IMG/VR virus record: IMGVR_UViG_3300043449_000416
Coordinates: 1 to 60,451 of that record
Strand: one strand, 5' to 3'
From: a virus
DNA length: 60,451 nucleotides
Shown here: one piece after another, positions 24,202 through 48,064 of the stretch
How positions within the stretch are numbered: position 1 is the first letter of the stretch
Layout: the number at the start of each line of letters is the position of its first letter
Program-made: the position numbers and the translations under genes
Notes under the pieces: model-generated
The model's input: only the letters and a program-made list of their open reading frames with translations
What the model was told of the DNA's origin: nothing
Databases searched by the model: none

Positions 24202-26688
24202 CTAGTAGTAATCAACTTTTCTTCTGTATGGCAGCTCTTCATCCAGCTCATCTGTCGGCAGGCGGATGAACCCCCCTTGGCGGAACCGCATCAGGGCCAT
24301 TATTGTCGTGTCGCAGTTGTGGACCAGCACACCGTTAGCGTAGTAGCAGTGAGTGTCAGCTACCGTCAGGTTGTATACTGGCTTTTTCTCTTCTCCTACG
24401 TTTATACTGTCTACTTGCGCACGTGTTGCCGCAAAGTTCGGCCCGGCCAGAAGACGATAGAAACTGCGTACTGCACTCCTTACAGGTACGGATAACCGGG
24501 TTTTCAGCCTGCTCTTTGAGCTTTTTCTCTCTAGCCTCACGGGCGGCCCCACCAAGTTTAAGGTACTTAGCTGTGCGATCTCTGTGCCAAGCTCTACCTT
24601 CCTCTGAACGGTGCCACTCGCTCGCCTTGCCACGAACCCTGTTAAGCAGGGCAAGTTGCTCGGGGCTTCTCGCTCTAATGCTGCGCTCTTCGGAGTGGCG
24701 TCTGCAGTGCTCTTCGCGAGATACGCACTCAAGGTTAGTGACGCCGTTGTTATCCCAATTTCCGTCCTTGTGGTGAACCTCCCAGCCGTCTGGAATAGGC
24801 CCATTGTGGAACTCCCACACAGCGCGGTGCAAGTTGAACCCTCCGGCTCGCTGAAAATACTTCCGAAGAGACGCTCTCGGAGAGTTCGGATAGCGGTTGT
24901 AAGTGTAGCCGTTGAACACAACAGACTCCGTGTGAACTTCTGGTTTAGTCGGCCACGGCATTTGCGCCCCCATTGCTTGGTCACCTTTACTGTATCAGTC
25001 ACAGTAATAGTGTCAAGACGCTTCCACCCGCACGTTGTGGCGATTGGGTGGTTCCCGGTGCCTTCCAGAGTGTGGCCTCCAGCGCGCAGAATAAATGTAT
25101 TTCGCACCCCTGTGCAACCTGCGGCCTGTACCACTTTCGCCCCCGCTGGCGTTTTAACGACGTCCCCGATCTTTATTGTTTCAATAGGTTGCTCTATTCC
25201 ATCAGCCATCAGAACTTGCGTTCCGGCTACAAAACAGTGGTCGTCGTTTTCAGCGAACGGGAATCCTGCAACTTCCTCGACCAGCTCCTCTGCCCACCGT
25301 TTAGGCGGCACCCAGACCAGCCCCGAGGAGATGATATCAGACACAGAGTTCAGACGCGCCATCTTGCTATTCGGGTTGTTTACCGAGCCCCTGACAGGGG
25401 TGTACTCCTGCACCATGAGCCCCGAGCGGCGCATCTCCTGATACAACGGCGTCCCCGAACTCTTTTTCTCGACGATGAACACGTCGGGTTCCCACTGCTG
25501 ATACTCCTCCAGAGCCAACGCTTTGAGCTCTGGAAACTCCATGCGCCGCTTGATGGCATTGAGCAGGATGATCTGGTGCATGTTCTCCTCGTCATTGAAG
25601 AACACTCCCCACGTTGTCAGAGACGTGAAGTCAGCCCGGTTGTGGGCTTCTGCAGCGGCGTCGAGAGACATGATGATATACTCTACAGCCGGTGGGTCGT
25701 CGTCTGGCCACAGCCGCCACCAATCTCTCTTGATTATGGCAGCTTCTTCGCCCGTCGGATTCTGCTGATACTGCGCGTTCCACTGGAACACCGGCATGGA
25801 GGCCTTGGTCCGCAGCAGTGCTTGTAGATCAAAAAACTCAGGCCAGAGGGCTCTTTGAATTATATTTTCTTCACCAGTGACGTTGTCTTTCTGGACTACG
25901 TCTAAAATAGCCGGAAACTCCACCACCTCATATTGGTCGGAGTTCTCGTTGTTGGCCATATCTTGAATAAGGCGTCCTGTTAGATCTTTTTTATGCCATC
26001 TTGTATGGACCACGGCCACGCGCCCCCCGGGCATCAGACGCGTCCGGGCCCCGAAGGCGAACCATTCGTAAGCTTTGTCGAATGCCGTGAAGTTTCCGTT
26101 CAAGATATCCTGCTCGGAGTGCGGGTCGTCGACGAGCAGCAGGTCAGCGCCGCGGCCCGCGAGGGCCGATCCCACGCCCGTGGCGTAAAACTCGCATCCT
26201 GTGGTCGTGTTCCAGCGCCCAGCCGACTTGCTGTCAGAGGACAGCGCGAGGTTCGGGAAGACCTGCTGGTAGGGCTCAGAGTCGATGATATTCCGCACCT
26301 TCCGACCGAAATCGACGGCTAGGTCCGTCGTATGCGAGACCAACATGACCTTTTTCCCGGGGTTTCGACCGATGAACCATGCAGGATAGTAGGTTGAGAC
26401 GAGCTGAGACTTGCCGTGGCGGGGTGGGATGTTGACGCAGACCCTGTCTTTGTCCCCCCGCTCGATGTCCATGAGCTCATCCGCTAGAATTCTATGGTGT
26501 CGGCCCACCTTATAGGTACGGTCCATATACTTACAGAAGGCAATCAGGTCATCCTTGGCACCCTGCAGCGTGGCGCGCTTGTCCAACTCCTCGAGCATTT
26601 TCTCGATCTCGAGCAGTTCCTGCTCGTCGAGCATATCCACGCTCTTGAGGAGCGTTTCGAGCTCTGCTCGATTGAAGTCGGAGCTCAT
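24202..26688 (-). CDS. terL: Terminase large subunit, interrupted by an intein
   Basis: Walker A (IPPRHGKSQ), Walker B (ADLLLVDDPH) and a C-terminal nuclease region; intein blocks CFVAGTQVLMADG... (A), TGNHP (B) and ...YYANGVLVHN/CDTTI (F/G). Confidence 0.85.
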   Translation of the reverse strand: MSSDFNRAELETLLKSVDMLDEQELLEIEKMLEELDKRATLQGAKDDLIAFCKYMDRTYKVGRHHRILADELMDIERGDKDRVCVNIPPRHGKSQLVSTYYPAWFIGRNPGKKVMLVSHTTDLAVDFGRKVRNIIDSEPYQQVFPNLALSSDSKSAGRWNTTTGCEFYATGVGSALAGRGADLLLVDDPHSEQDILNGNFTAFDKAYEWFAFGARTRLMPGGRVAVVHTRWHKKDLTGRLIQDMANNENSDQYEVVEFPAILDVVQKDNVTGEENIIQRALWPEFFDLQALLRTKASMPVFQWNAQYQQNPTGEEAAIIKRDWWRLWPDDDPPAVEYIIMSLDAAAEAHNRADFTSLTTWGVFFNDEENMHQIILLNAIKRRMEFPELKALALEEYQQWEPDVFIVEKKSSGTPLYQEMRRSGLMVQEYTPVRGSVNNPNSKMARLNSVSDIISSGLVWVPPKRWAEELVEEVAGFPFAENDDHCFVAGTQVLMADGIEQPIETIKIGDVVKTPAGAKVVQAAGCTGVRNTFILRAGGHTLEGTGNHPIATTCGWKRLDTITVTDTVKVTKQWGRKCRGRLNQKFTRSLLCSTATLTTAIRTLRERLFGSIFSEPEGSTCTALCGSSTMGLFQTAGRFTTRTEIGITTASLTLSAYLAKSTADATPKSAALEREAPSNLPCLTGFVARRASGTVQRKVELGTEIAQLSTLNLVGPPVRLERKSSKSRLKTRLSVPVRSAVRSFYRLLAGPNFAATRAQVDSINVGEEKKPVYNLTVADTHCYYANGVLVHNCDTTIMALMRFRQGGFIRLPTDELDEELPYRRKVDYY
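24316..25236 (-). other. Intein within terL (aa 485-791 of the precursor)
   Basis: N-terminal Cys after ...FAENDDH, C-terminal HN followed by +1 Cys; boundaries computed from the ORF. Confidence 0.75.
24356..24973 (-). CDS. HNH endonuclease ORF nested inside the terL intein, in a different reading frame
   Basis: HRAVWEFHNGPIPDGWEVHHKDGNWDNNGVTNLECVSREEHCRRH is an unambiguous HNH motif; the ORF exactly fills the gap between the intein N- and C-terminal splicing blocks and has a GGTGA-like RBS upstream of its ATG. Confidence 0.7.
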   Translation of the reverse strand: MGAQMPWPTKPEVHTESVVFNGYTYNRYPNSPRASLRKYFQRAGGFNLHRAVWEFHNGPIPDGWEVHHKDGNWDNNGVTNLECVSREEHCRRHSEERSIRARSPEQLALLNRVRGKASEWHRSEEGRAWHRDRTAKYLKLGGAAREAREKKLKEQAENPVIRTCKECSTQFLSSSGRAELCGNTCASRQYKRRRREKASIQPDGS

Positions 26689-42406: not shown

Positions 42407-44245
42407 GTGGACATAATAACTATAGACATGGAGACCTACTACGACAAAGACTACTCGCTGTCTAAGATCACCACGGAAGAATATGTCCGTGACCCCCGCT
42501 TCCAAGTCATTGGGGTGGGGGTGAAGGTCAACGACGATAAGACCGAGTGGTTCAGTGGAACACACGGCAAGATCAAGGAGTTCTTGGCTCAGTATGACTG
42601 GGCTAACTCCGCGGTGTTGGTACACAATATGATGTTCGATGGCTCGATCCTGTCGTGGCGATTTGGTATTCGTCCGAAGGCGCTGTTCGACACACTGTGC
42701 ATGGCCCGTGCGATCCACGGTGTCGAGAAAAGCGCCAGCCTAAAGGCCCTCGCCGAGAACTATGCGGTAGGGGAGAAGGGCACCGAGGTGCTGGACGCCA
42801 AGGGTAAACGTCGCGGAGACTTCACACCGGAGGAGCTATCGGCCTACGGGCGTTACTGTATCAATGACGTAGACCTGACCTACGATATCTTCAACATCAT
42901 GATGTCCCGTGGGTTCCCGAAGTCTGAACTCAAGTTGATCGACCTAACCCTGCGTATGTTCACTGAGCCTACGATAGGGCTGGATCGGGAGCGTCTCGAG
43001 AAGCATCTCGTGAAGACGCAGACTATGAAGGAAGACCTGCTCAAGTCTGCTGGCGTCGAGGATAAAGCCGACCTCATGTCGAACCCGAAGTTTGCCGCAC
43101 TGTTAGGGACGCTCGGTGTCCCGTGCCCTATGAAGATCAGCCCTACCACGGGTAAAATGACCTACGCGCTGGCTAAGACTGATCAGGGTATGAAAGACCT
43201 GCTGGAGCATGATGATCCACAGGTGCAGGCGCTGGCCGCTGCGCGCCTCGGGGTGAAGTCTACGCTCGAGGAGACCCGCACACAGCGGTTTATCGACATC
43301 GCTGGGCGGGGCCTGCTGCCTGTCCCGGTGCGCTACTACGCGGCTCATACAGGGCGCTGGGGTGGTGACGACAAGATCAACCTGCAGAATCTGCCTAGTC
43401 GGGGGCCTAATGCCAAGGCGCTTAAGAAGTGCATAGTGGCACCAGAAGGCCATAGCATCGTCGAAGCCGACTCGTCACAGATCGAAGCGCGCATGCTGGC
43501 ATGGCTGGCTGGGCAAGACGACGTGGTGCAGACCTTCGCGTCTAAGGGTGACGTCTATAAGAAGATGGCCTCAGCGATCTACAACGTGGACGAGGCTGAC
43601 GTGACCAAGGATCAACGGTTTGTAGGTAAAACAACAGTTTTGGGCGCGGGGTATGGCATGGGTGGCGAGAAGTTCCAGCTGGCTCTTAAGAATTCCGGGG
43701 TGGACATCACCAAAAACGAGGCGGCTAAGATCATCGGCATCTACCGAGAAACCAACAACATGATCTCGAACATGTGGAAGCAGGCCGGAACCATGCTGCG
43801 TTATATGGTGCGTGGTGACGCTATGCCATTCGGTAAGGATGGGGTTCTTGGTGTGGATACCTATGCTCCCGGTATCAAGCTGCCCAATGGCCTTCTGATC
43901 CGCTACGATGGACTGCTAGAGAGCGAGAACGAGAAGGGTGGCACCGAGTATTCTTACAAGACCCGCATGGGCCCCACTCGCATCTACGGCGGTAAGGTGG
44001 TCGAGAATGTCACGCAAGCACTCGCCAGACTTATCATCGGCGAACAAATGCTGCGAATTAGTAAGAAGTACAGAGTTGTGTTGACTGTTCATGACAGTAT
44101 CGTATGCTGTGTACCTGACCAAGAAGCCGAAGCCTGCAAAGCCTACGTCGAGCAGTGTATGCGCTGGGTTCCCGCTTGGGCCGAGGGCTTACCCGTGGAC
44201 TGCGAGGCCGGGGTCGGCAAGAATTATGGAGAGTGCGATGCTTGA
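42407..44245 (+). CDS. DNA polymerase (family A-like) with N-terminal 3'-5' exonuclease
   Basis: Exo motifs IITIDMETYYD, HNMMFDGSIL, YCINDVDLTYDIF; polymerase motifs VEADSSQIEARMLAWLAG, KDQRFVGKTTVLGAGYG, VHDSIVCCV. Confidence 0.8.
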   Translation: MDIITIDMETYYDKDYSLSKITTEEYVRDPRFQVIGVGVKVNDDKTEWFSGTHGKIKEFLAQYDWANSAVLVHNMMFDGSILSWRFGIRPKALFDTLCMARAIHGVEKSASLKALAENYAVGEKGTEVLDAKGKRRGDFTPEELSAYGRYCINDVDLTYDIFNIMMSRGFPKSELKLIDLTLRMFTEPTIGLDRERLEKHLVKTQTMKEDLLKSAGVEDKADLMSNPKFAALLGTLGVPCPMKISPTTGKMTYALAKTDQGMKDLLEHDDPQVQALAAARLGVKSTLEETRTQRFIDIAGRGLLPVPVRYYAAHTGRWGGDDKINLQNLPSRGPNAKALKKCIVAPEGHSIVEADSSQIEARMLAWLAGQDDVVQTFASKGDVYKKMASAIYNVDEADVTKDQRFVGKTTVLGAGYGMGGEKFQLALKNSGVDITKNEAAKIIGIYRETNNMISNMWKQAGTMLRYMVRGDAMPFGKDGVLGVDTYAPGIKLPNGLLIRYDGLLESENEKGGTEYSYKTRMGPTRIYGGKVVENVTQALARLIIGEQMLRISKKYRVVLTVHDSIVCCVPDQEAEACKAYVEQCMRWVPAWAEGLPVDCEAGVGKNYGECDA

Positions 44246-44696
44246 GCTGGAGTGGCGGGCCATACCGGGATACGCCTACGAGGTATCTTCGGCGGGCGAT
44301 GTTCGTAACGCCATAACCCGTAAGGTGCTAACCCCAATGCGCACTGGCTGGAGAGCCGTGGTTAGGTTGTCTACCAATCCGCGGGTAGACTTTCCTGTAT
44401 CTCACTTGGTGCTATCCGCGTTTAGTGGGGCTCGACCGCTGGGCGGAGTAGCTATGCACATGGATGATGACCCGCATAACAACCATGCAAACAATCTGCG
44501 GTGGGGCACCATGCAAGATAATGCTAGAGATATGGCACAAAAGTGTCGGGGAGGTAAGCAGGTGCTAACCGCTGAGGTGGTTACTGAAATCCGTGCGCGG
44601 AGGGCATCCGGGGAACGGGGTCGAGAATTGGCTGTAGCGTATGGTATATCCGAACAGCGTGTATGTGACATACATAAAGGGCGTACTACACTATGA
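44226..44696 (+). CDS. HNH homing-endonuclease-like protein, overlapping the 3' end of the DNA polymerase gene
   Basis: WRAIPGYAYEVSSAGDVRN... N-terminal module and MHMDDDPHNNHANNLRWGTMQDNARD HNH-type motif; first ATG lies inside the last codons of the polymerase gene. Confidence 0.65.
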   Translation: MESAMLELEWRAIPGYAYEVSSAGDVRNAITRKVLTPMRTGWRAVVRLSTNPRVDFPVSHLVLSAFSGARPLGGVAMHMDDDPHNNHANNLRWGTMQDNARDMAQKCRGGKQVLTAEVVTEIRARRASGERGRELAVAYGISEQRVCDIHKGRTTL

Positions 44697-45358: not shown

Positions 45359-45621
45359 TTGCCATGCCATACACGAAGTCGCCGCGTCCTTATAAGGCCG
45401 AATACCAGAAACAAATAGAACGTGGTGAGCACCCGGACCGCATGGAGCGGCAGCGTGCTCGGCGTGCCTTGGACAAGAAGGGCGTTGACCGCACAGGCAA
45501 GGACGTGAGCCACAAGAAAGCGTTGGCCAAGGGGGGCAGCAACGCTGACGGCTATAAGCTAGAGAGCCCCTCGAAGAACCGTAGCCGGAACGGCCATAAA
45601 CCCGGTGAGAAAAAAGGTTAG
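45355..45621 (+). CDS. Small basic hypothetical protein (88 aa)
   Basis: Arg/Lys-rich ORF ATGA-coupled to the upstream gene. Confidence 0.4.
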   Translation: MIAMPYTKSPRPYKAEYQKQIERGEHPDRMERQRARRALDKKGVDRTGKDVSHKKALAKGGSNADGYKLESPSKNRSRNGHKPGEKKG

Positions 45622-45634
45622 GGAAAACCCTAAC
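45617..45634. repeat. GTTAG-N-CTAAC hairpin family member (perfect palindrome)
   Basis: gttagggaaaaccctaac, immediately upstream of the helicase start. Confidence 0.6.
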
Positions 45635-45649
45635 GTCTCGGAGAACGAT

Positions 45650-48064
45650 ATGCAGATCATTGATAATAAGGCGTTGCTTCTCAAGCTACGCAATCCAAAA
45701 CAAGTCACTACGATCATCCCTAAGAGTCGCGCTATCAGCGAGCACGAGGTCATTGTAAACTGGGGCGTACAGGAAACGCACACTCTACGTGGGCTGAACA
45801 TCAAGGTGCCGTCACCCATCGAAGGTCGCTATAACTGGACGGGCAAGTTCGCCCCAATGGCGCACCAGCGCACGACAGCATCTTTCCTGACCATGTACCA
45901 GAGAGCGTTTTGCTTCAACGAAGCCGGGACTGGTAAGACGGCTAGTGCGATCTGGGCTGCAGACTTCCTCATGAAGCAGGGTATCATCAAGCGTGCCTTG
46001 GTCATATGTCCGCTCTCGATCATGGACAGCGCGTGGCGCGCGGACTTGTTTACGTTTGCCATGCACCGGACTGTAGACATCGCCCATGGTACCGCAGACA
46101 AACGTAAGAAAATCATCGCTCGGAAACCTGATTTCCTCATCATCAACTACGACGGTGTTGAGATTGTCAAAGAAGACATCGCGGCGGCGGGCTACGACCT
46201 CATTATCGTTGACGAATGCTTTGTTGCTGGCACCCCCGTGCACACCCCGAACGGTATAACGGCGATTGAGAAGCTCAAAGTAGGAGATGCGGTGTTTACA
46301 AGTGATGGGGTACGTAATATAAAAACGGTATCCAAGCGAAAACCAAACAGTCTTGTGGAGGTAAAATTTGATACCGGGGAAATACTTACATGCACACCAG
46401 AGCATCCTTTCTTCACTGACTGGGGTTGGGTGCCCGCCAGAGCTCTTGGGGGTAGACGCATCGTGTCTTTATCTGCGCTGTCCGATCTGCGGAAACCACT
46501 ACAAAGTGGCCCAGAGCAAATGGCGCTTTCACCGGAAGACAAAAACACACACTGGGATGACCTGTGCTCGATCCTGCGGTCGGAAGAGGTGGCATCTCCT
46601 GCACCCGGGTCAGTCAGCGCTAAAGTTTCTGACTGTGGAGCAGAGGGCGAAGGGGGTTCGGTCTGGGTTTCACCGTACACCAGAGCAGCGCGAGCACTTA
46701 TCGAAGGTGGCGATATCGAAAGGGATTCGTCCGATGGTTCGTGGCGGCAACGGTACGGGCATGACTGGGGCGGAGACGTTGCTAGCGGCGCAGCTTCCGG
46801 CTGGTTGGCGATGGAACTTCCAAATAGCGTTGGGCAAGAGGCTTCCCGGCTATCCTACGAATTACAAACTCGACTTCGCGTGGCCGGAGAAGAAACTTGG
46901 GTTGGAAGTGGATGGAGGCAGCCATCGCACGACGAAGGCTCAGGAGAGGGACAGGAAGAAAACGGAAAAGCTTTCGGAATTAGGGTGGGAAGTGTTACGT
47001 ATAGAGAACCGGGATGCGACGAATACGTCTACAACCTCGAAGTTGATGGAACTCCTAACTACTTTGTTGGGGGACAACGAGCACTAGTACACAACTGCAG
47101 CCACTACAAGAATGCTCAGAGCAAGCGCTGGAAGGTGCTGAACTCGCTGGTTAAGCCCGAGACGTGGCTCTGGATGATGACGGGTACCCCGGCGGCACAA
47201 GGGCCCGAGGATGCTTTCGGCTTAGCGAAGCTGGTAAACCCGACGGGTGTGCCTAAGTTCTTCAACGCTTGGAAGGACATGGTGATGTACAAGGTATCTC
47301 AGTACCGCTGGAAACCCAAGGAACACTCTGAGCATACCGTGCATCGGGCCCTGCAGCCCGCAATTCGCTACACCAAGGAAGAATGCTTAGACCTACCAGA
47401 TATGCTCTACGTTAAACGAGACGTGGCGCTGACCAAGCAGCAGGAGCTCTACTACAATCGCCTCAAGAAGCAGATGGTCATGGAAGTGGCTGGGGCGCAG
47501 ATCACGGCGGTAAACGCTGCGGTGATGATGGGCAAACTCCTGCAAATCTCGGCGGGCGCAAGCTACACCGAATCCGGCGACACAGTGCAGTTCGATATCA
47601 ACAATCGCTACAGCGTCCTCAAAGAGGTCATCGCTGAGAGCACTCACAAGGTGCTGGTCTTTGTGCCTTTCAAACACGTGATAGAGATGTTGACCGCGCA
47701 GCTGACCAAGGATGGCATTACAAACGCTGTCATCAGCGGCGACGTAAAGGCTGGGGACCGAACTGACATCTTTAGGCAGTTCCAAAACCAACCTGACCCT
47801 AGAGTGCTGGTCATCCAACCGCAGGCTGCCGCACATGGCGTGACGCTCACTGCGGCGAATACAGTTGTCTGGTGGGCACCGACGTCATCGCTCGAAACCT
47901 ACGCACAGGCTAACGCCCGGGTGCACCGCAAAGGGCAATCCAACAAGTGCACCGTAGTTCAGCTGCAGGGGTCGGGCGTAGAGCGCAGGGTCTACAAGAT
48001 GCTCGACGAGAAGATTGACGTGCATACTAAGGTTGTCGATCTTTATAAAGAATTGCTTGACTAG
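45650..48064 (+). CDS. SNF2-family (DExH) helicase interrupted by an intein in motif II
   Basis: Motif I NEAGTGKT, motif II LIIVDE|C...HN|CSH (intein inserted), motif III MMTGTP, motif VI QANARVHRKGQ; start refined to the ATG at 45650. Confidence 0.8.
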   Translation: MQIIDNKALLLKLRNPKQVTTIIPKSRAISEHEVIVNWGVQETHTLRGLNIKVPSPIEGRYNWTGKFAPMAHQRTTASFLTMYQRAFCFNEAGTGKTASAIWAADFLMKQGIIKRALVICPLSIMDSAWRADLFTFAMHRTVDIAHGTADKRKKIIARKPDFLIINYDGVEIVKEDIAAAGYDLIIVDECFVAGTPVHTPNGITAIEKLKVGDAVFTSDGVRNIKTVSKRKPNSLVEVKFDTGEILTCTPEHPFFTDWGWVPARALGGRRIVSLSALSDLRKPLQSGPEQMALSPEDKNTHWDDLCSILRSEEVASPAPGSVSAKVSDCGAEGEGGSVWVSPYTRAARALIEGGDIERDSSDGSWRQRYGHDWGGDVASGAASGWLAMELPNSVGQEASRLSYELQTRLRVAGEETWVGSGWRQPSHDEGSGEGQEENGKAFGIRVGSVTYREPGCDEYVYNLEVDGTPNYFVGGQRALVHNCSHYKNAQSKRWKVLNSLVKPETWLWMMTGTPAAQGPEDAFGLAKLVNPTGVPKFFNAWKDMVMYKVSQYRWKPKEHSEHTVHRALQPAIRYTKEECLDLPDMLYVKRDVALTKQQELYYNRLKKQMVMEVAGAQITAVNAAVMMGKLLQISAGASYTESGDTVQFDINNRYSVLKEVIAESTHKVLVFVPFKHVIEMLTAQLTKDGITNAVISGDVKAGDRTDIFRQFQNQPDPRVLVIQPQAAAHGVTLTAANTVVWWAPTSSLETYAQANARVHRKGQSNKCTVVQLQGSGVERRVYKMLDEKIDVHTKVVDLYKELLD
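46217..47095 (+). other. Intein within the SNF2 helicase gene (aa 205-497 of the track ORF)
   Basis: N-terminal CFVAGTPVHTPNG...TCTPEHPFFT (blocks A/B); C-terminal EYVYNLEVDGTPNYFVGGQRALVHN followed by Cys. Confidence 0.75.
46368..47087 (+). CDS. Vsr-like (DUF559-type PD-(D/E)XK) endonuclease ORF nested in the helicase intein, in a different frame
   Basis: C-terminal YKLDFAWPEKKLGLEVDGGSH...ERDRKKTEKLSELGWEVLRI matches the Vsr/DUF559 nuclease signature; upstream CPICG zinc motif and a NUMOD-like segment (GFHRTPEQREHLSKVAISKGI). Confidence 0.6.
   Translation: MIPGKYLHAHQSILSSLTGVGCPPELLGVDASCLYLRCPICGNHYKVAQSKWRFHRKTKTHTGMTCARSCGRKRWHLLHPGQSALKFLTVEQRAKGVRSGFHRTPEQREHLSKVAISKGIRPMVRGGNGTGMTGAETLLAAQLPAGWRWNFQIALGKRLPGYPTNYKLDFAWPEKKLGLEVDGGSHRTTKAQERDRKKTEKLSELGWEVLRIENRDATNTSTTSKLMELLTTLLGDNEH

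What the first reader, a model, noticed from the sequence alone, without database searches (positions are those of the whole stretch)
46217..47095. Second intein (SNF2 helicase motif II) also carries an out-of-frame endonuclease ORF, of Vsr/DUF559 type
This intein sits in the DExH box (LIIVDE|C...HN|CSH). Its middle again reads as stop-free but non-protein-like sequence in the host frame, while an alternative frame (46368..47087) encodes a zinc-finger, NUMOD-like segment and Vsr-like PD-(D/E)XK nuclease domain (LDFAWPEKKLGLEVDGGSH...GWEVLRI). The same out-of-frame architecture occurring independently in two inteins of one genome, with two different nuclease families, argues against random sequencing error and for a biological arrangement.
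Basis: partly seen in the sequence, partly recalled or inferred. Interest (0 to 1): 0.85.

Follow-up and report, generated by a model that had tools for sequence, protein, structure and literature searches.

The report
Intein hiding an out-of-frame homing nuclease
A self-splicing protein insert (intein) in a phage helicase gene carries a second, overlapping gene for a DNA-cutting enzyme read in a shifted frame; the layout is real, is kept by selection in at least 76 related sequences, and belongs to a class of intein first described in 2025-26.

Summary
Bases 46217..47095 are exactly a 293-codon class-1 intein, inserted after the DE of helicase motif II (LIIVDE|C...VHN|CSH) in an SNF2-like phage helicase.

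Its central 180 codons are stop-free in the host frame. About 7.7 stops are expected by chance (P about 1e-4).

The +1 frame (46368..47087) encodes a 239-aa protein with a Cys4 zinc ribbon and a Vsr-like nuclease domain:
- Pfam DUF559, E 8e-9.

This is not a sequencing error. All 94 related loci examined (76 distinct; phage contigs, bacterial MAGs and three cultured phages) have the same +1 nesting, an open host frame and a closed third frame.

Purifying selection switches frames at the domain borders. In the middle, dN/dS is 0.16-0.27 in the nuclease frame and 0.9-2.0 in the host frame.

A TTG start with a GGAGG Shine-Dalgarno site is conserved.

Two results point to homing:
- Intein-free alleles (DEASH) exist at 94% identity.
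- Intein and extein similarity are discordant between loci.

Out-of-frame intein nucleases were reported in 2025-26 for other nuclease families. I therefore class this as a new variant of a known kind, of moderate interest.

The parts
45650..48064 (+). Helicase precursor gene (SNF2-like, 804 codons plus stop). The mechanical ORF starts at GTG 45605. ATG 45650 (MQIIDNK...) is the likely start.
   Evidence: ORF. SNF2-rel_dom E 6.8e-17 and Helicase_C E 1.9e-15. Homologues start at the equivalent MQIV/MRII. Intein-free homologues align to residues 1-511 of the spliced protein.
45650..46216 (+). N-extein, ending in motif II ...LIIVDE
   Evidence: Host-frame dN/dS is 0.05-0.27.
46217..47095 (+). Class-1 intein, 293 codons: Cys1 ... 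block B TCTPEHPF ... LVHN
   Evidence: Hint_2, PT-HINT, Vint and Intein_splicing hits. Junctions are conserved in 76 distinct loci.
46217..46462 (+). N-terminal Hint splicing segment (blocks A and B), selected in the host frame
   Evidence: Host-frame dN/dS 0.11-0.24, with the wobble at host codon position 3. AF2 pLDDT 83-95 for residues 1-85.
46463..47002 (+). Host-frame linker: 180 codons, stop-free, not selected as protein. The same bases are the nuclease core in the +1 frame.
   Evidence: Host-frame dN/dS 0.9-2.0 against 0.16-0.27 in the +1 frame. The most variable position moves to host codon position 1. P(open) about 1e-4. pLDDT is mostly below 50. S+G+E+A make up 45% of residues.
47027..47095 (+). 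C-terminal Hint segment (blocks F and G: DEYVYNLEVDGTPNYFVGGQRALVHN)
   Evidence: Host-frame dN/dS 0.14-0.73, lower than the other frames in most pairs. Conserved in all loci.
47096..48064 (+). C-extein, beginning with Cys+1 (CSHYKNAQ...). Intein-free alleles have Ala here (DEASHYK or DEATHYK).
   Evidence: Host-frame dN/dS 0.04-0.22.
46357..46361 (+). GGAGG Shine-Dalgarno-like site, 6 nt upstream of the TTG, encoded inside the host 'VEV' codons
   Evidence: Sequence. GGAGG or GAGG at 6-nt spacing before a TTG recurs through the SNF2 clade. 58 of 74 distinct loci have an SD-preceded start upstream of the zinc ribbon.
46368..47087 (+). Nested homing-endonuclease ORF in the +1 frame (239 aa; TTG start, TAG stop)
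   Evidence: DUF559. 35 protein homologues. All family-invariant residues are present: G127 N128 G129, D169, E180, D182, H186, D195, W207, R211.
46479..46577 (+). Putative Cys4 zinc ribbon of the nuclease (C38, C41, C66, C70; CPxC...CSxSC)
   Evidence: The Cys pattern is conserved. pLDDT 92-97 for residues 21-50. Weak profile similarity to eL24, TRASH and FCS-type zinc ribbons. Metal binding is inferred.
46755..47012 (+). Vsr-like (DUF559 / EDxHD-fold) catalytic domain, residues about 130-215
47085..47087 (+). Nuclease stop codon TAG, built from CTA-G of the host codons Leu-Val in LVHN, 8 nt before the intein end
   Evidence: The same xTA-G stop is found in 47 of 72 distinct junctions.

Best explanation
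This is a mobile class-1 intein sitting between the DE and the following residue of motif II (DExH) of a phage SNF2-like helicase. Its homing-endonuclease gene is overprinted in the +1 reading frame rather than fused in frame.

**Two proteins come from the same DNA.**
1. Ribosomes reading the helicase frame pass through 180 stop-free codons. These yield an unstructured linker rich in S, G, E and A, located at the usual nuclease-insertion point between Hint blocks B and F. The intein then splices, giving a 511-aa helicase whose motif II reads DECSH instead of DEASH.
2. Ribosomes starting at an internal TTG (46368), 6 nt after a GGAGG, make a 239-aa nuclease. It has a short leader, a Cys4 zinc ribbon, a helical linker and a Vsr-like catalytic domain. 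It ends at a TAG built into the LVHN codons.

**Proposed homing step.** The nuclease is proposed to cut intein-free helicase alleles at or near ...GTGGACGAG|GCCAGCCACTACAAG... Repair from the intein-bearing allele then copies in the intein, the nuclease gene and the Cys+1 codon.

**What is shown:** the anatomy; selection acting on each frame separately; conservation of the layout; the existence of empty sites; and discordant intein and extein histories.

**What is inferred:** the translation start, the cleavage target, and splicing itself.
For: - **Anatomy and domain hits:**
- **Host frame kept open against expectation:** 7.7 stops expected, P about 1e-4. The same holds in 76 distinct loci: median 7.2 stops expected, none observed.
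- **Same +1 nesting in 91 of 91 fetched loci and 3 of 3 cultured phages,** down to 25-30% nuclease identity, always at hhhhDE|C.
- **Frame-switching selection:** exteins and Hint segments have host-frame dN/dS 0.04-0.5. In the middle, dN/dS is 0.16-0.27 in the +1 frame and 0.9-2.0 in the host frame. Window versus L010: 65% amino-acid identity in the nuclease frame, 36% in the host-frame middle.
- **Start site:** a TTG with GGAGG or GAGG at 6 nt is conserved even where the host residue differs (Leu CTT or Phe TTT).
- **Mobility:**
  - 80 intein-free alleles, up to 94% identical, read DEA(S/T)HYK.
  - L004 and L005 exteins are 73-86% identical in DNA, but their intein core is 97-100% identical.
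  - Window and L005 exteins are 94-100% identical, but their inteins only 79-92%.
- **Other features excluded:** no RNA family, no antisense protein family and no internal promoter-like site.
Against: - No expression, splicing or cleavage data exist for any family member.
- TTG is a weak start. The GGAGG is also forced in part by the conserved host residues V-E-V, so its presence is not independent evidence.
- 16 of 74 distinct loci lack an obvious SD-preceded start.
- Sequence similarity to the one characterised homing enzyme of this fold is marginal (3r3p, E 0.54). The link rests on fold.
- The host-frame model had a shallow alignment, so low pLDDT in the middle and at the C-terminus is weak evidence.
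- Discordant similarity could reflect general recombination rather than nuclease-driven homing.
Confidence: 0.85

Rival explanations
1. Sequencing or assembly artefact. A canonical intein with an in-frame nuclease domain has been put out of frame by two compensating indel errors at the domain borders.
For: The frame switches fall close to the domain borders (about 46463 and about 47010-47027). Two indels there would restore an in-frame fusion.
Against: 94 independent loci from different samples and assemblers, including finished cultured-phage genomes, have the same offset. The host frame is stop-free where about 7 stops are expected. An artefact gives no reason for that. No in-frame relative was found among 91 loci.
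Confidence: 0.01
2. Decaying relic. The nuclease ORF is a former homing-endonuclease gene that is no longer expressed or active, on its way to a mini-intein.
For: There is no expression data. The start is a weak TTG. The Gosselin et al. preprint argues that such overlaps should be transient.
Against: +1-frame dN/dS is 0.16-0.27 across pairs with dS up to about 2. All family-invariant residues are intact in the window copy. The ORF is open in nearly all distinct loci. The intein core is nearly identical between diverged exteins.
Confidence: 0.04
3. The nuclease is made by programmed +1 ribosomal frameshifting out of the helicase frame, giving a fusion of N-extein, Hint-N and nuclease, rather than by internal initiation.
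For: The nuclease frame is open for 35-50 codons upstream of the zinc ribbon and overlaps Hint block B. No promoter-like site lies inside the intein.
Against: In many loci a stop codon in the nuclease frame lies immediately before a conserved SD-preceded start (window: TAA at 46362-64, then AAT, then TTG). I saw no conserved slippery or stimulatory element, and the RNA fold z-score at the site is 0.12. The leader has pLDDT below 50.
Confidence: 0.06
4. The nuclease is functional but has been recruited for something other than homing, for example cutting the genomes of co-infecting intein-free phages as interference competition, or a role for the host.
For: Long-term retention of the pair across phages and bacterial MAGs. 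The DUF559 fold also occurs in non-mobile contexts.
Against: Every detected member is nested in an intein at the same helicase motif. That is the signature of a site-specific mobile unit. Empty sites and intein/extein discordance fit homing. Competition and homing are not mutually exclusive.
Confidence: 0.08
5. The host-frame middle is itself a functional folded domain, and the +1 ORF is a by-product.
For: Some host-frame motifs recur, such as MELPxSVG..AARLSYELQ.
Against: Those motifs lie over the most conserved nuclease residues (PTNYKLDF..., LEVDG). Host-frame dN/dS is 0.9-2.0 and host-frame identity falls to 36-40% where the nuclease frame keeps 55-65%. There is no Pfam hit and pLDDT is low.
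Confidence: 0.01

Closest known systems
[quoted passage not shown]
   Same: Contiguous intein. The nuclease gene lies on the same strand in another reading frame, between the splicing blocks. The host-frame middle is unstructured. The proposed origin is invasion of an intein by a free-standing nuclease gene.
   Different: - The nuclease family differs: endonuclease VII-like there, DUF559/Vsr-like here.
- The frame differs: frame 3 there, +1 here.
- The hosts differ: terL, minor capsid, DNA polymerase and ThyX there, the SF2 helicase DExH box here.
- That survey was limited to actinophages and called the architecture rare. Here at least 76 distinct members span phages and bacterial MAGs, all with the same frame.
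Antisense VSR-like nuclease inteins of actinophages (same preprint)
   Same: Vsr-like, possibly EDxHD, nuclease associated with a contiguous intein. Some show horizontal transfer.
   Different: There the nuclease is encoded on the opposite strand. Here it is on the same strand in the +1 frame, so it shares the helicase mRNA. I did not test whether the two nuclease groups are homologous.
Cyanobacterial dnaX intein with a LAGLIDADG nuclease in the +2 ORF (Phillips, DeSimone and Gogarten, bioRxiv 10.64898/2026.09.14.751524)
   Same: Same-strand overlapping nuclease ORF. Selection depends on frame (low omega in the nuclease frame, raised omega in the host frame). A Shine-Dalgarno site lies upstream. 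Full, mini and empty alleles coexist.
   Different: The nuclease there is LAGLIDADG. The host gene and frame offset differ. It is bacterial rather than mainly phage.
'Fractured genes': split inteins separated by a free-standing Vsr-like nuclease gene (Dassa et al. 2009, PMC2677866)
   Same: Vsr-like nuclease gene placed at the nuclease-insertion point of an intein in phage replication genes. The nuclease 3' end overlaps the downstream intein coding sequence.
   Different: There the host gene is broken into two ORFs and joined by trans-splicing. Here the host frame is continuous (tested). That paper stated that Vsr-like nucleases were not known inside inteins. This family could be a contiguous sibling or precursor of that arrangement.
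I-Bth0305I, prototype of the EDxHD homing endonucleases (Taylor et al. 2011, PMC3239194; PDB 3R3P)
   Different: It is encoded in a group I intron in recA. Its N-terminal part is NUMOD/HTH rather than a Cys4 zinc ribbon. Sequence similarity is marginal (E 0.54); by sequence the ORF is closer to DUF559 (3hrl, E 1e-7).
ShiLan hidden HNH element in phage methylase genes (Arsenault et al. 2025, PMC11855218)
   Same: Out-of-frame nuclease ORF inside a stop-free in-frame insertion of a phage gene.
   Different: That element has no splicing domain. Here canonical Hint blocks flank the overlap.

Membership tests
Class-1 intein | N-terminal nucleophile (Cys1), block B TxxH, C-terminal His-Asn, and a Cys/Ser/Thr at +1 | tested here: met
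   CFVAGTP...; TCTPEHPF...LVHN|C. Conserved at the junctions of the distinct loci for which the junction was located.
Class-1 intein | Hint fold or domain | tested here: met
   Hint_2 32.6 bits (cut-off 28.4) and PT-HINT 31.9 bits (cut-off 27.7) on the intein alone. The N-terminal 85 residues model at pLDDT 83-95. The C-terminal strands were not modelled confidently.
Class-1 intein | Continuous reading frame with both exteins | tested here: met
   Single ORF 45605..48064. The frame is open in 94 of 94 loci.
Class-1 intein | Protein splicing activity | not testable with these tools
   Inferred from intact catalytic residues, and from purifying selection on both exteins of a replication helicase.
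DUF559 / Vsr-like (EDxHD-fold) endonuclease | Sequence match to the family model above its curated threshold | tested here: met
   PF04480, 35.7 bits against a 20.6 cut-off. 28 of 28 aligned relatives match.
DUF559 / Vsr-like (EDxHD-fold) endonuclease | Vsr-type alpha/beta nuclease fold | tested here: met
   [not shown]
DUF559 / Vsr-like (EDxHD-fold) endonuclease | Composite catalytic motif of conserved Glu/Asp, His and Asp | tested here: inconclusive
   D169, E180, D182, H186 and D195 are invariant in 28 sequences. This is compatible with the EDxHD description. I did not map them residue by residue onto I-Bth0305I, and the direct sequence hit to 3r3p is only E 0.54.
DUF559 / Vsr-like (EDxHD-fold) endonuclease | Site-specific double-strand cleavage of the empty allele | not testable with these tools
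   Empty-site sequences were recovered for an assay.
EDxHD homing endonucleases as described for I-Bth0305I | N-terminal NUMOD/HTH DNA-binding modules | tested here: not met
   NUMOD3 is hit by 1 of 28 members, at E 0.011, and not by the window copy. A Cys4 zinc ribbon occupies that position instead.
Inteins with an overlapping, out-of-frame homing-endonuclease gene | Nuclease ORF on the same strand, in another frame, between splicing blocks B and F | tested here: met
   Frame offset +1. The nuclease core at 46464..47003 lies between block B and block F.
Inteins with an overlapping, out-of-frame homing-endonuclease gene | Purifying selection in the nuclease frame and relaxed or raised omega in the host frame across the overlap | tested here: met
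   0.16-0.27 against 0.9-2.0 in ten sequence pairs.
Inteins with an overlapping, out-of-frame homing-endonuclease gene | Signs of mobility: empty alleles in close relatives, and intein/extein discordance | tested here: met
   Intein-free alleles at 94% identity lie between intein-bearing relatives at 97% and 90%. The L004/L005 intein core is 97-100% identical against 73-86% for their exteins.
Fractured gene / split intein with an intervening nuclease gene | Host gene broken into two ORFs by a stop and a restart around the nuclease gene | tested here: not met
   The host frame is continuous in every locus. The broken genes seen in metagenome annotations are gene-caller artefacts.
SNF2-like SF2 helicase (host protein) | SNF2-related N-lobe and Helicase_C domains, with Walker B DExH | tested here: met
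   Intein-free homologues read DEA(S/T)HYK.

The most novel reading that the evidence does not exclude
The overlap is an ancient, evolutionarily stable way of packaging a homing nuclease, not a short-lived accident.

Every detectable member of this nuclease family keeps the same +1 offset inside an intein at the DE|x position of motif II. This covers at least 76 distinct loci, with 25-90% identity to the window nuclease, in phages of Proteobacteria and Actinobacteria and in MAGs of Cyanobacteriota, Acidobacteriota and other phyla. I found no in-frame and no free-standing relative.

That would mean one old overprinting event, followed by long persistence and by jumps between different SF2 helicase families. 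It would contradict the expectation that such arrangements quickly resolve into in-frame fusions, split inteins or mini-inteins. It would also offer a contiguous counterpart to the 'fractured gene' split inteins that carry Vsr-like nucleases.
Probability: 0.55. Interest if true: 0.65.

Novelty: new variant of a known kind. Interest (0 to 1): 0.55.

Why it matters
**Gene overlap.** It shows that an intein and its homing nuclease can share the same bases in two frames for a very long time. The host frame is constrained only to avoid stop codons. This is a clean natural example of overprinting with a measurable selective signature.

**Intein nuclease types.** It adds a same-strand Vsr-like (DUF559/EDxHD-fold) nuclease to the short list of nuclease types found in contiguous inteins. 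It ties that nuclease to one target, the DExH box of SF2 helicases.

**Annotation.** Gene callers break these helicase genes or miss the nested ORF:
- The protein database held only 24 host-frame relatives of the intein, against 35 relatives of the nested nuclease ORF found in the same database.
- Three GenBank phages carry the ORF unannotated.

Intein surveys that classify such elements as mini-inteins or as decaying inteins will therefore be biased.

**Applications.** The family offers compact site-specific nucleases with known natural targets. The inteins tolerate a 180-residue arbitrary linker, which is of interest for protein engineering.

Tried and rejected
- **DNA search of the helicase gene against GenBank phages:** no match. 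The protein-level search did work.
- **Sequencing artefact:** rejected.
- **Host-frame middle as a folded domain:** rejected.
- **Antisense ORFs 46192..46680, 45812..46405, 46413..46604 and 46670..46837:** no Pfam hit.
- **Group I intron or other RNA element:** no Rfam hit at E up to 1.
- **Separate promoter for the nuclease:** no promoter-like site inside the intein, and hits do not exceed the shuffles.
- **RNA hairpin masking the nuclease start,** as in fractured genes: z-score 0.12.
- **NUMOD-like DNA-binding segment:** essentially unsupported.
- **Homologue search with the host-frame intein:** too few full-length relatives, so the host-frame structure model is only weak evidence.
- **Dra Snf2 intein paper (PMC151952),** wanted to compare insertion sites: not held.
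- **In-frame or free-standing relatives of the nuclease:** none among 91 loci. Only the best 80 of 180 viral hits were inspected.
Full report
**What is in the sequence**

The + strand ORF 45605..48064 encodes an SNF2-like helicase. Its likely start is ATG 45650. Pfam gives SNF2-rel_dom E 6.8e-17 and Helicase_C E 1.9e-15.

46217..47095 is 293 codons, reading LIIVDE|CFVAGTP...TCTPEHPF...DEYVYNLEVDGTPNYFVGGQRALVHN|CSHYKNAQ. Hint-family models hit both ends of it.

The +1 frame holds ORF 46368..47087 (239 aa). It matches DUF559 above the Pfam threshold (E 8.2e-9).

**Is the double reading more than chance?**

I kept the nuclease protein sequence fixed and redrew synonymous codons from this genome's own usage. 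The helicase frame over the 180-codon core (46464..47003) then carries 7.7 stops on average. It was open in 0.0001 of 20,000 draws. The third frame has 7 stops. So the helicase frame is being kept open.

**Related sequences**

The nuclease ORF has 35 protein-database relatives at 30-57% identity, nearly all called as separate genes of about 234 aa.

I fetched DNA for three of them, for 80 viral contigs and for 8 bacterial MAG contigs. The result was uniform:
- In 91 of 91 loci the nuclease match lies inside a 460-1770-codon ORF in the frame that makes the nuclease 'host +1'.
- That host frame is open across the whole match, and the third frame is closed.
- An intein C-junction (LVHN followed by C or S) comes just after the match.

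Among 76 distinct loci, the N-junction is hhhhDE|C wherever I could locate it. A median of 7.2 host-frame stops is expected and none is observed.

The exteins belong to several SF2 helicase types (SNF2-like CxxYKN, SSILKS and SHRMKNPK variants; ResIII/DEAH-type CHHxSA). The insertion point is always the DExH box.

Three cultured phages carry the same unannotated nested ORF under a 'helicase' or 'hypothetical' CDS:
- Corynebacterium phage phi673 (gp43)
- Vibrio phage 1.088.O
- Vibrio phage 104E43.1

This excludes sequencing error. It also shows that the offset is an inherited, conserved property of the whole family.

**Which frame is under selection?**

I built a codon alignment of the window with L004, L005, L007, L008, L010 and L011 and ran Nei-Gojobori estimates.

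| Segment | Host-frame dN/dS | +1-frame dN/dS |
|---|---|---|
| Exteins | 0.04-0.27 | above 1 |
| N-terminal Hint segment | 0.11-0.24 | 0.98-2.64 |
| C-terminal Hint segment | 0.14-0.73 | higher in most pairs |
| Middle (46463..47002) | 0.9-2.0 | 0.16-0.27 |

The most variable codon position moves from host position 3 in the exteins and Hint segments to host position 1 in the middle. Host position 1 is nuclease position 3.

At the protein level, the window and L010 are 65% identical in the nuclease frame but 36% in the host-frame middle.

So the nuclease is the selected product of the middle. The host-frame reading there is only a stop-free spacer: S, G, E and A make up 45% of its residues, it has no family hit, and its pLDDT is mostly below 50. 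The last point carries a caveat, because the alignment behind that model was shallow.

**What the nested protein is**

The AF2 model built from the 28-sequence alignment has mean pLDDT 82. Only the first 18 or so residues, which overlap Hint block B, are disordered.

Foldseek agrees. The sequence profile hits 3hrl at E 1e-7 but 3r3p only at E 0.54.

Invariant residues in the family are GNG (127-129), P163, Y166, K167, D169, E180, D182, H186, D195, W207 and R211. All are present in the window copy.

Upstream of the catalytic domain is a conserved CPxC...CSxSC pattern, modelled with pLDDT above 90. I read it as a Cys4 zinc ribbon.

**How the nuclease is probably made**

In the nuclease frame a TAA (46362-64) is followed one codon later by TTG 46368. 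GGAGG lies at 46357-61, which is 6 nt upstream.

The close relatives keep GGAGG or GAGG plus TTG at the same spacing. This holds even though the host residue under the TTG varies (Leu CTT or Phe TTT). Others use an ATG or GTG one to five codons further on. 58 of 74 distinct loci have an SD-preceded start before the zinc ribbon.

The nuclease stop is a TAG formed by xTA-G of the (L/I/V)-V codons of LVHN in 47 of 72 distinct junctions. In most members the whole nuclease gene therefore travels inside the intein.

I found no promoter-like site inside the intein, no masking hairpin and no RNA family. Internal initiation on the helicase mRNA is therefore the most economical reading. It remains an inference.

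**Evidence for mobility**

A search with the spliced helicase returned 80 intein-free alleles, 68-94% identical, all reading DEA(S/T)HYK or a close variant. The invaded allele has Cys in place of that Ala.

Intein-free L092 (94% identical to the window exteins) sits between two intein-bearing relatives, L005 (97%) and L004 (90%).

Sliding-window identity shows discordance between intein and extein:
- L004 and L005 exteins are 73-86% identical in DNA, but their intein core is 97-100% identical.
- Window and L005 exteins are 94-100% identical, but their inteins only 79-92%.

The intein has therefore moved or been exchanged independently of its host gene, as expected for homing. The cleavage site itself is untested.

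**Comparison with what is known**

- Dassa et al. 2009 (PMC2677866) found Vsr-like nuclease genes between the halves of split inteins. They noted that such nucleases were not known inside inteins.
- Taylor et al. 2011 (PMC3239194) characterised I-Bth0305I and named the EDxHD family.
[quoted passage not shown] The hosts were terL, capsid, polymerase and ThyX genes.
- Phillips et al. (bioRxiv 10.64898/2026.09.14.751524) showed a +2-ORF LAGLIDADG nuclease in the dnaX intein, with the same kind of frame-dependent selection.
- Arsenault et al. 2025 (PMC11855218) described a hidden out-of-frame HNH without an intein.

The kind of arrangement is therefore already described. The following did not appear in the five literature searches I ran, which cover open-access papers and preprints only:
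- a same-strand +1 Vsr-like/DUF559 nuclease in a contiguous intein;
- its fixed association with the DExH box of SF2 helicases;
- its breadth and depth of conservation.

I rate it a new variant of a known kind.

**Verdict**

The mechanism (intein splicing, plus an independently translated homing nuclease from an overprinted frame) is well supported by comparative evidence. It has not been tested biochemically.

Interest is moderate (0.55). The architecture is a current topic, and this family is an unusually large, old and uniform example with cultured carriers for experiments. It is not a new principle.

Noticed in passing
window 24202..26688 (minus strand); intein 24316..25236; nested ORF 24356..24973: The terminase large subunit carries a second intein (CFVAGTQV...VLVHN|C, 307 codons). 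Its middle holds an out-of-frame (host +2) ORF that hits HNH_3 at E 3e-16. The host frame is open where about 3.4 stops are expected (P about 0.008).
   Followed up: partly
window 44091..44696 (+): An ORF just after, and overlapping the end of, the DNA polymerase gene reads ...WRAIPGYAYEVSSAGDVRN...HMDDDPHNNHANNLRWGT... It looks like a free-standing HNH-type homing endonuclease. This genome seems rich in homing elements.
   Followed up: no
L001 3136..5705; L002 297..2510; L003 1639..3978: Metagenome gene callers annotate the nested nuclease ORF and a truncated C-terminal helicase, and drop the N-terminal part of the helicase. As a result the protein database holds only 24 host-frame relatives of the intein, against 35 relatives of the nested nuclease found in the same database.
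   Followed up: yes
L172 (NC_042354 gp43), L173 (MG592463 NVP1088O_73), L174 (MW824411 p0033): Cultured Corynebacterium and Vibrio phages carry the same intein with a +1 nuclease ORF inside genes annotated simply as helicase, P-loop NTPase or hypothetical protein. The nested ORF is not annotated.
   Followed up: partly
L004 vs L005, aligned to window 46600..47000: The nuclease-coding core is 97-100% identical between two contigs whose helicase exteins are only 73-86% identical. The Hint-N part is intermediate (84-91%), so the exchanged tract looks mosaic rather than matching the intein borders.
   Followed up: partly
L084, L085, L088 (Cyanobacteriota MAGs); L087, L090 (Acidobacteriota, Bryobacterales); L089, L091: Bacterial MAG contigs also carry the nested arrangement in DE|CHH-type helicases. 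I did not check whether these are prophages or chromosomal genes.
   Followed up: no
[not shown]
   Followed up: no
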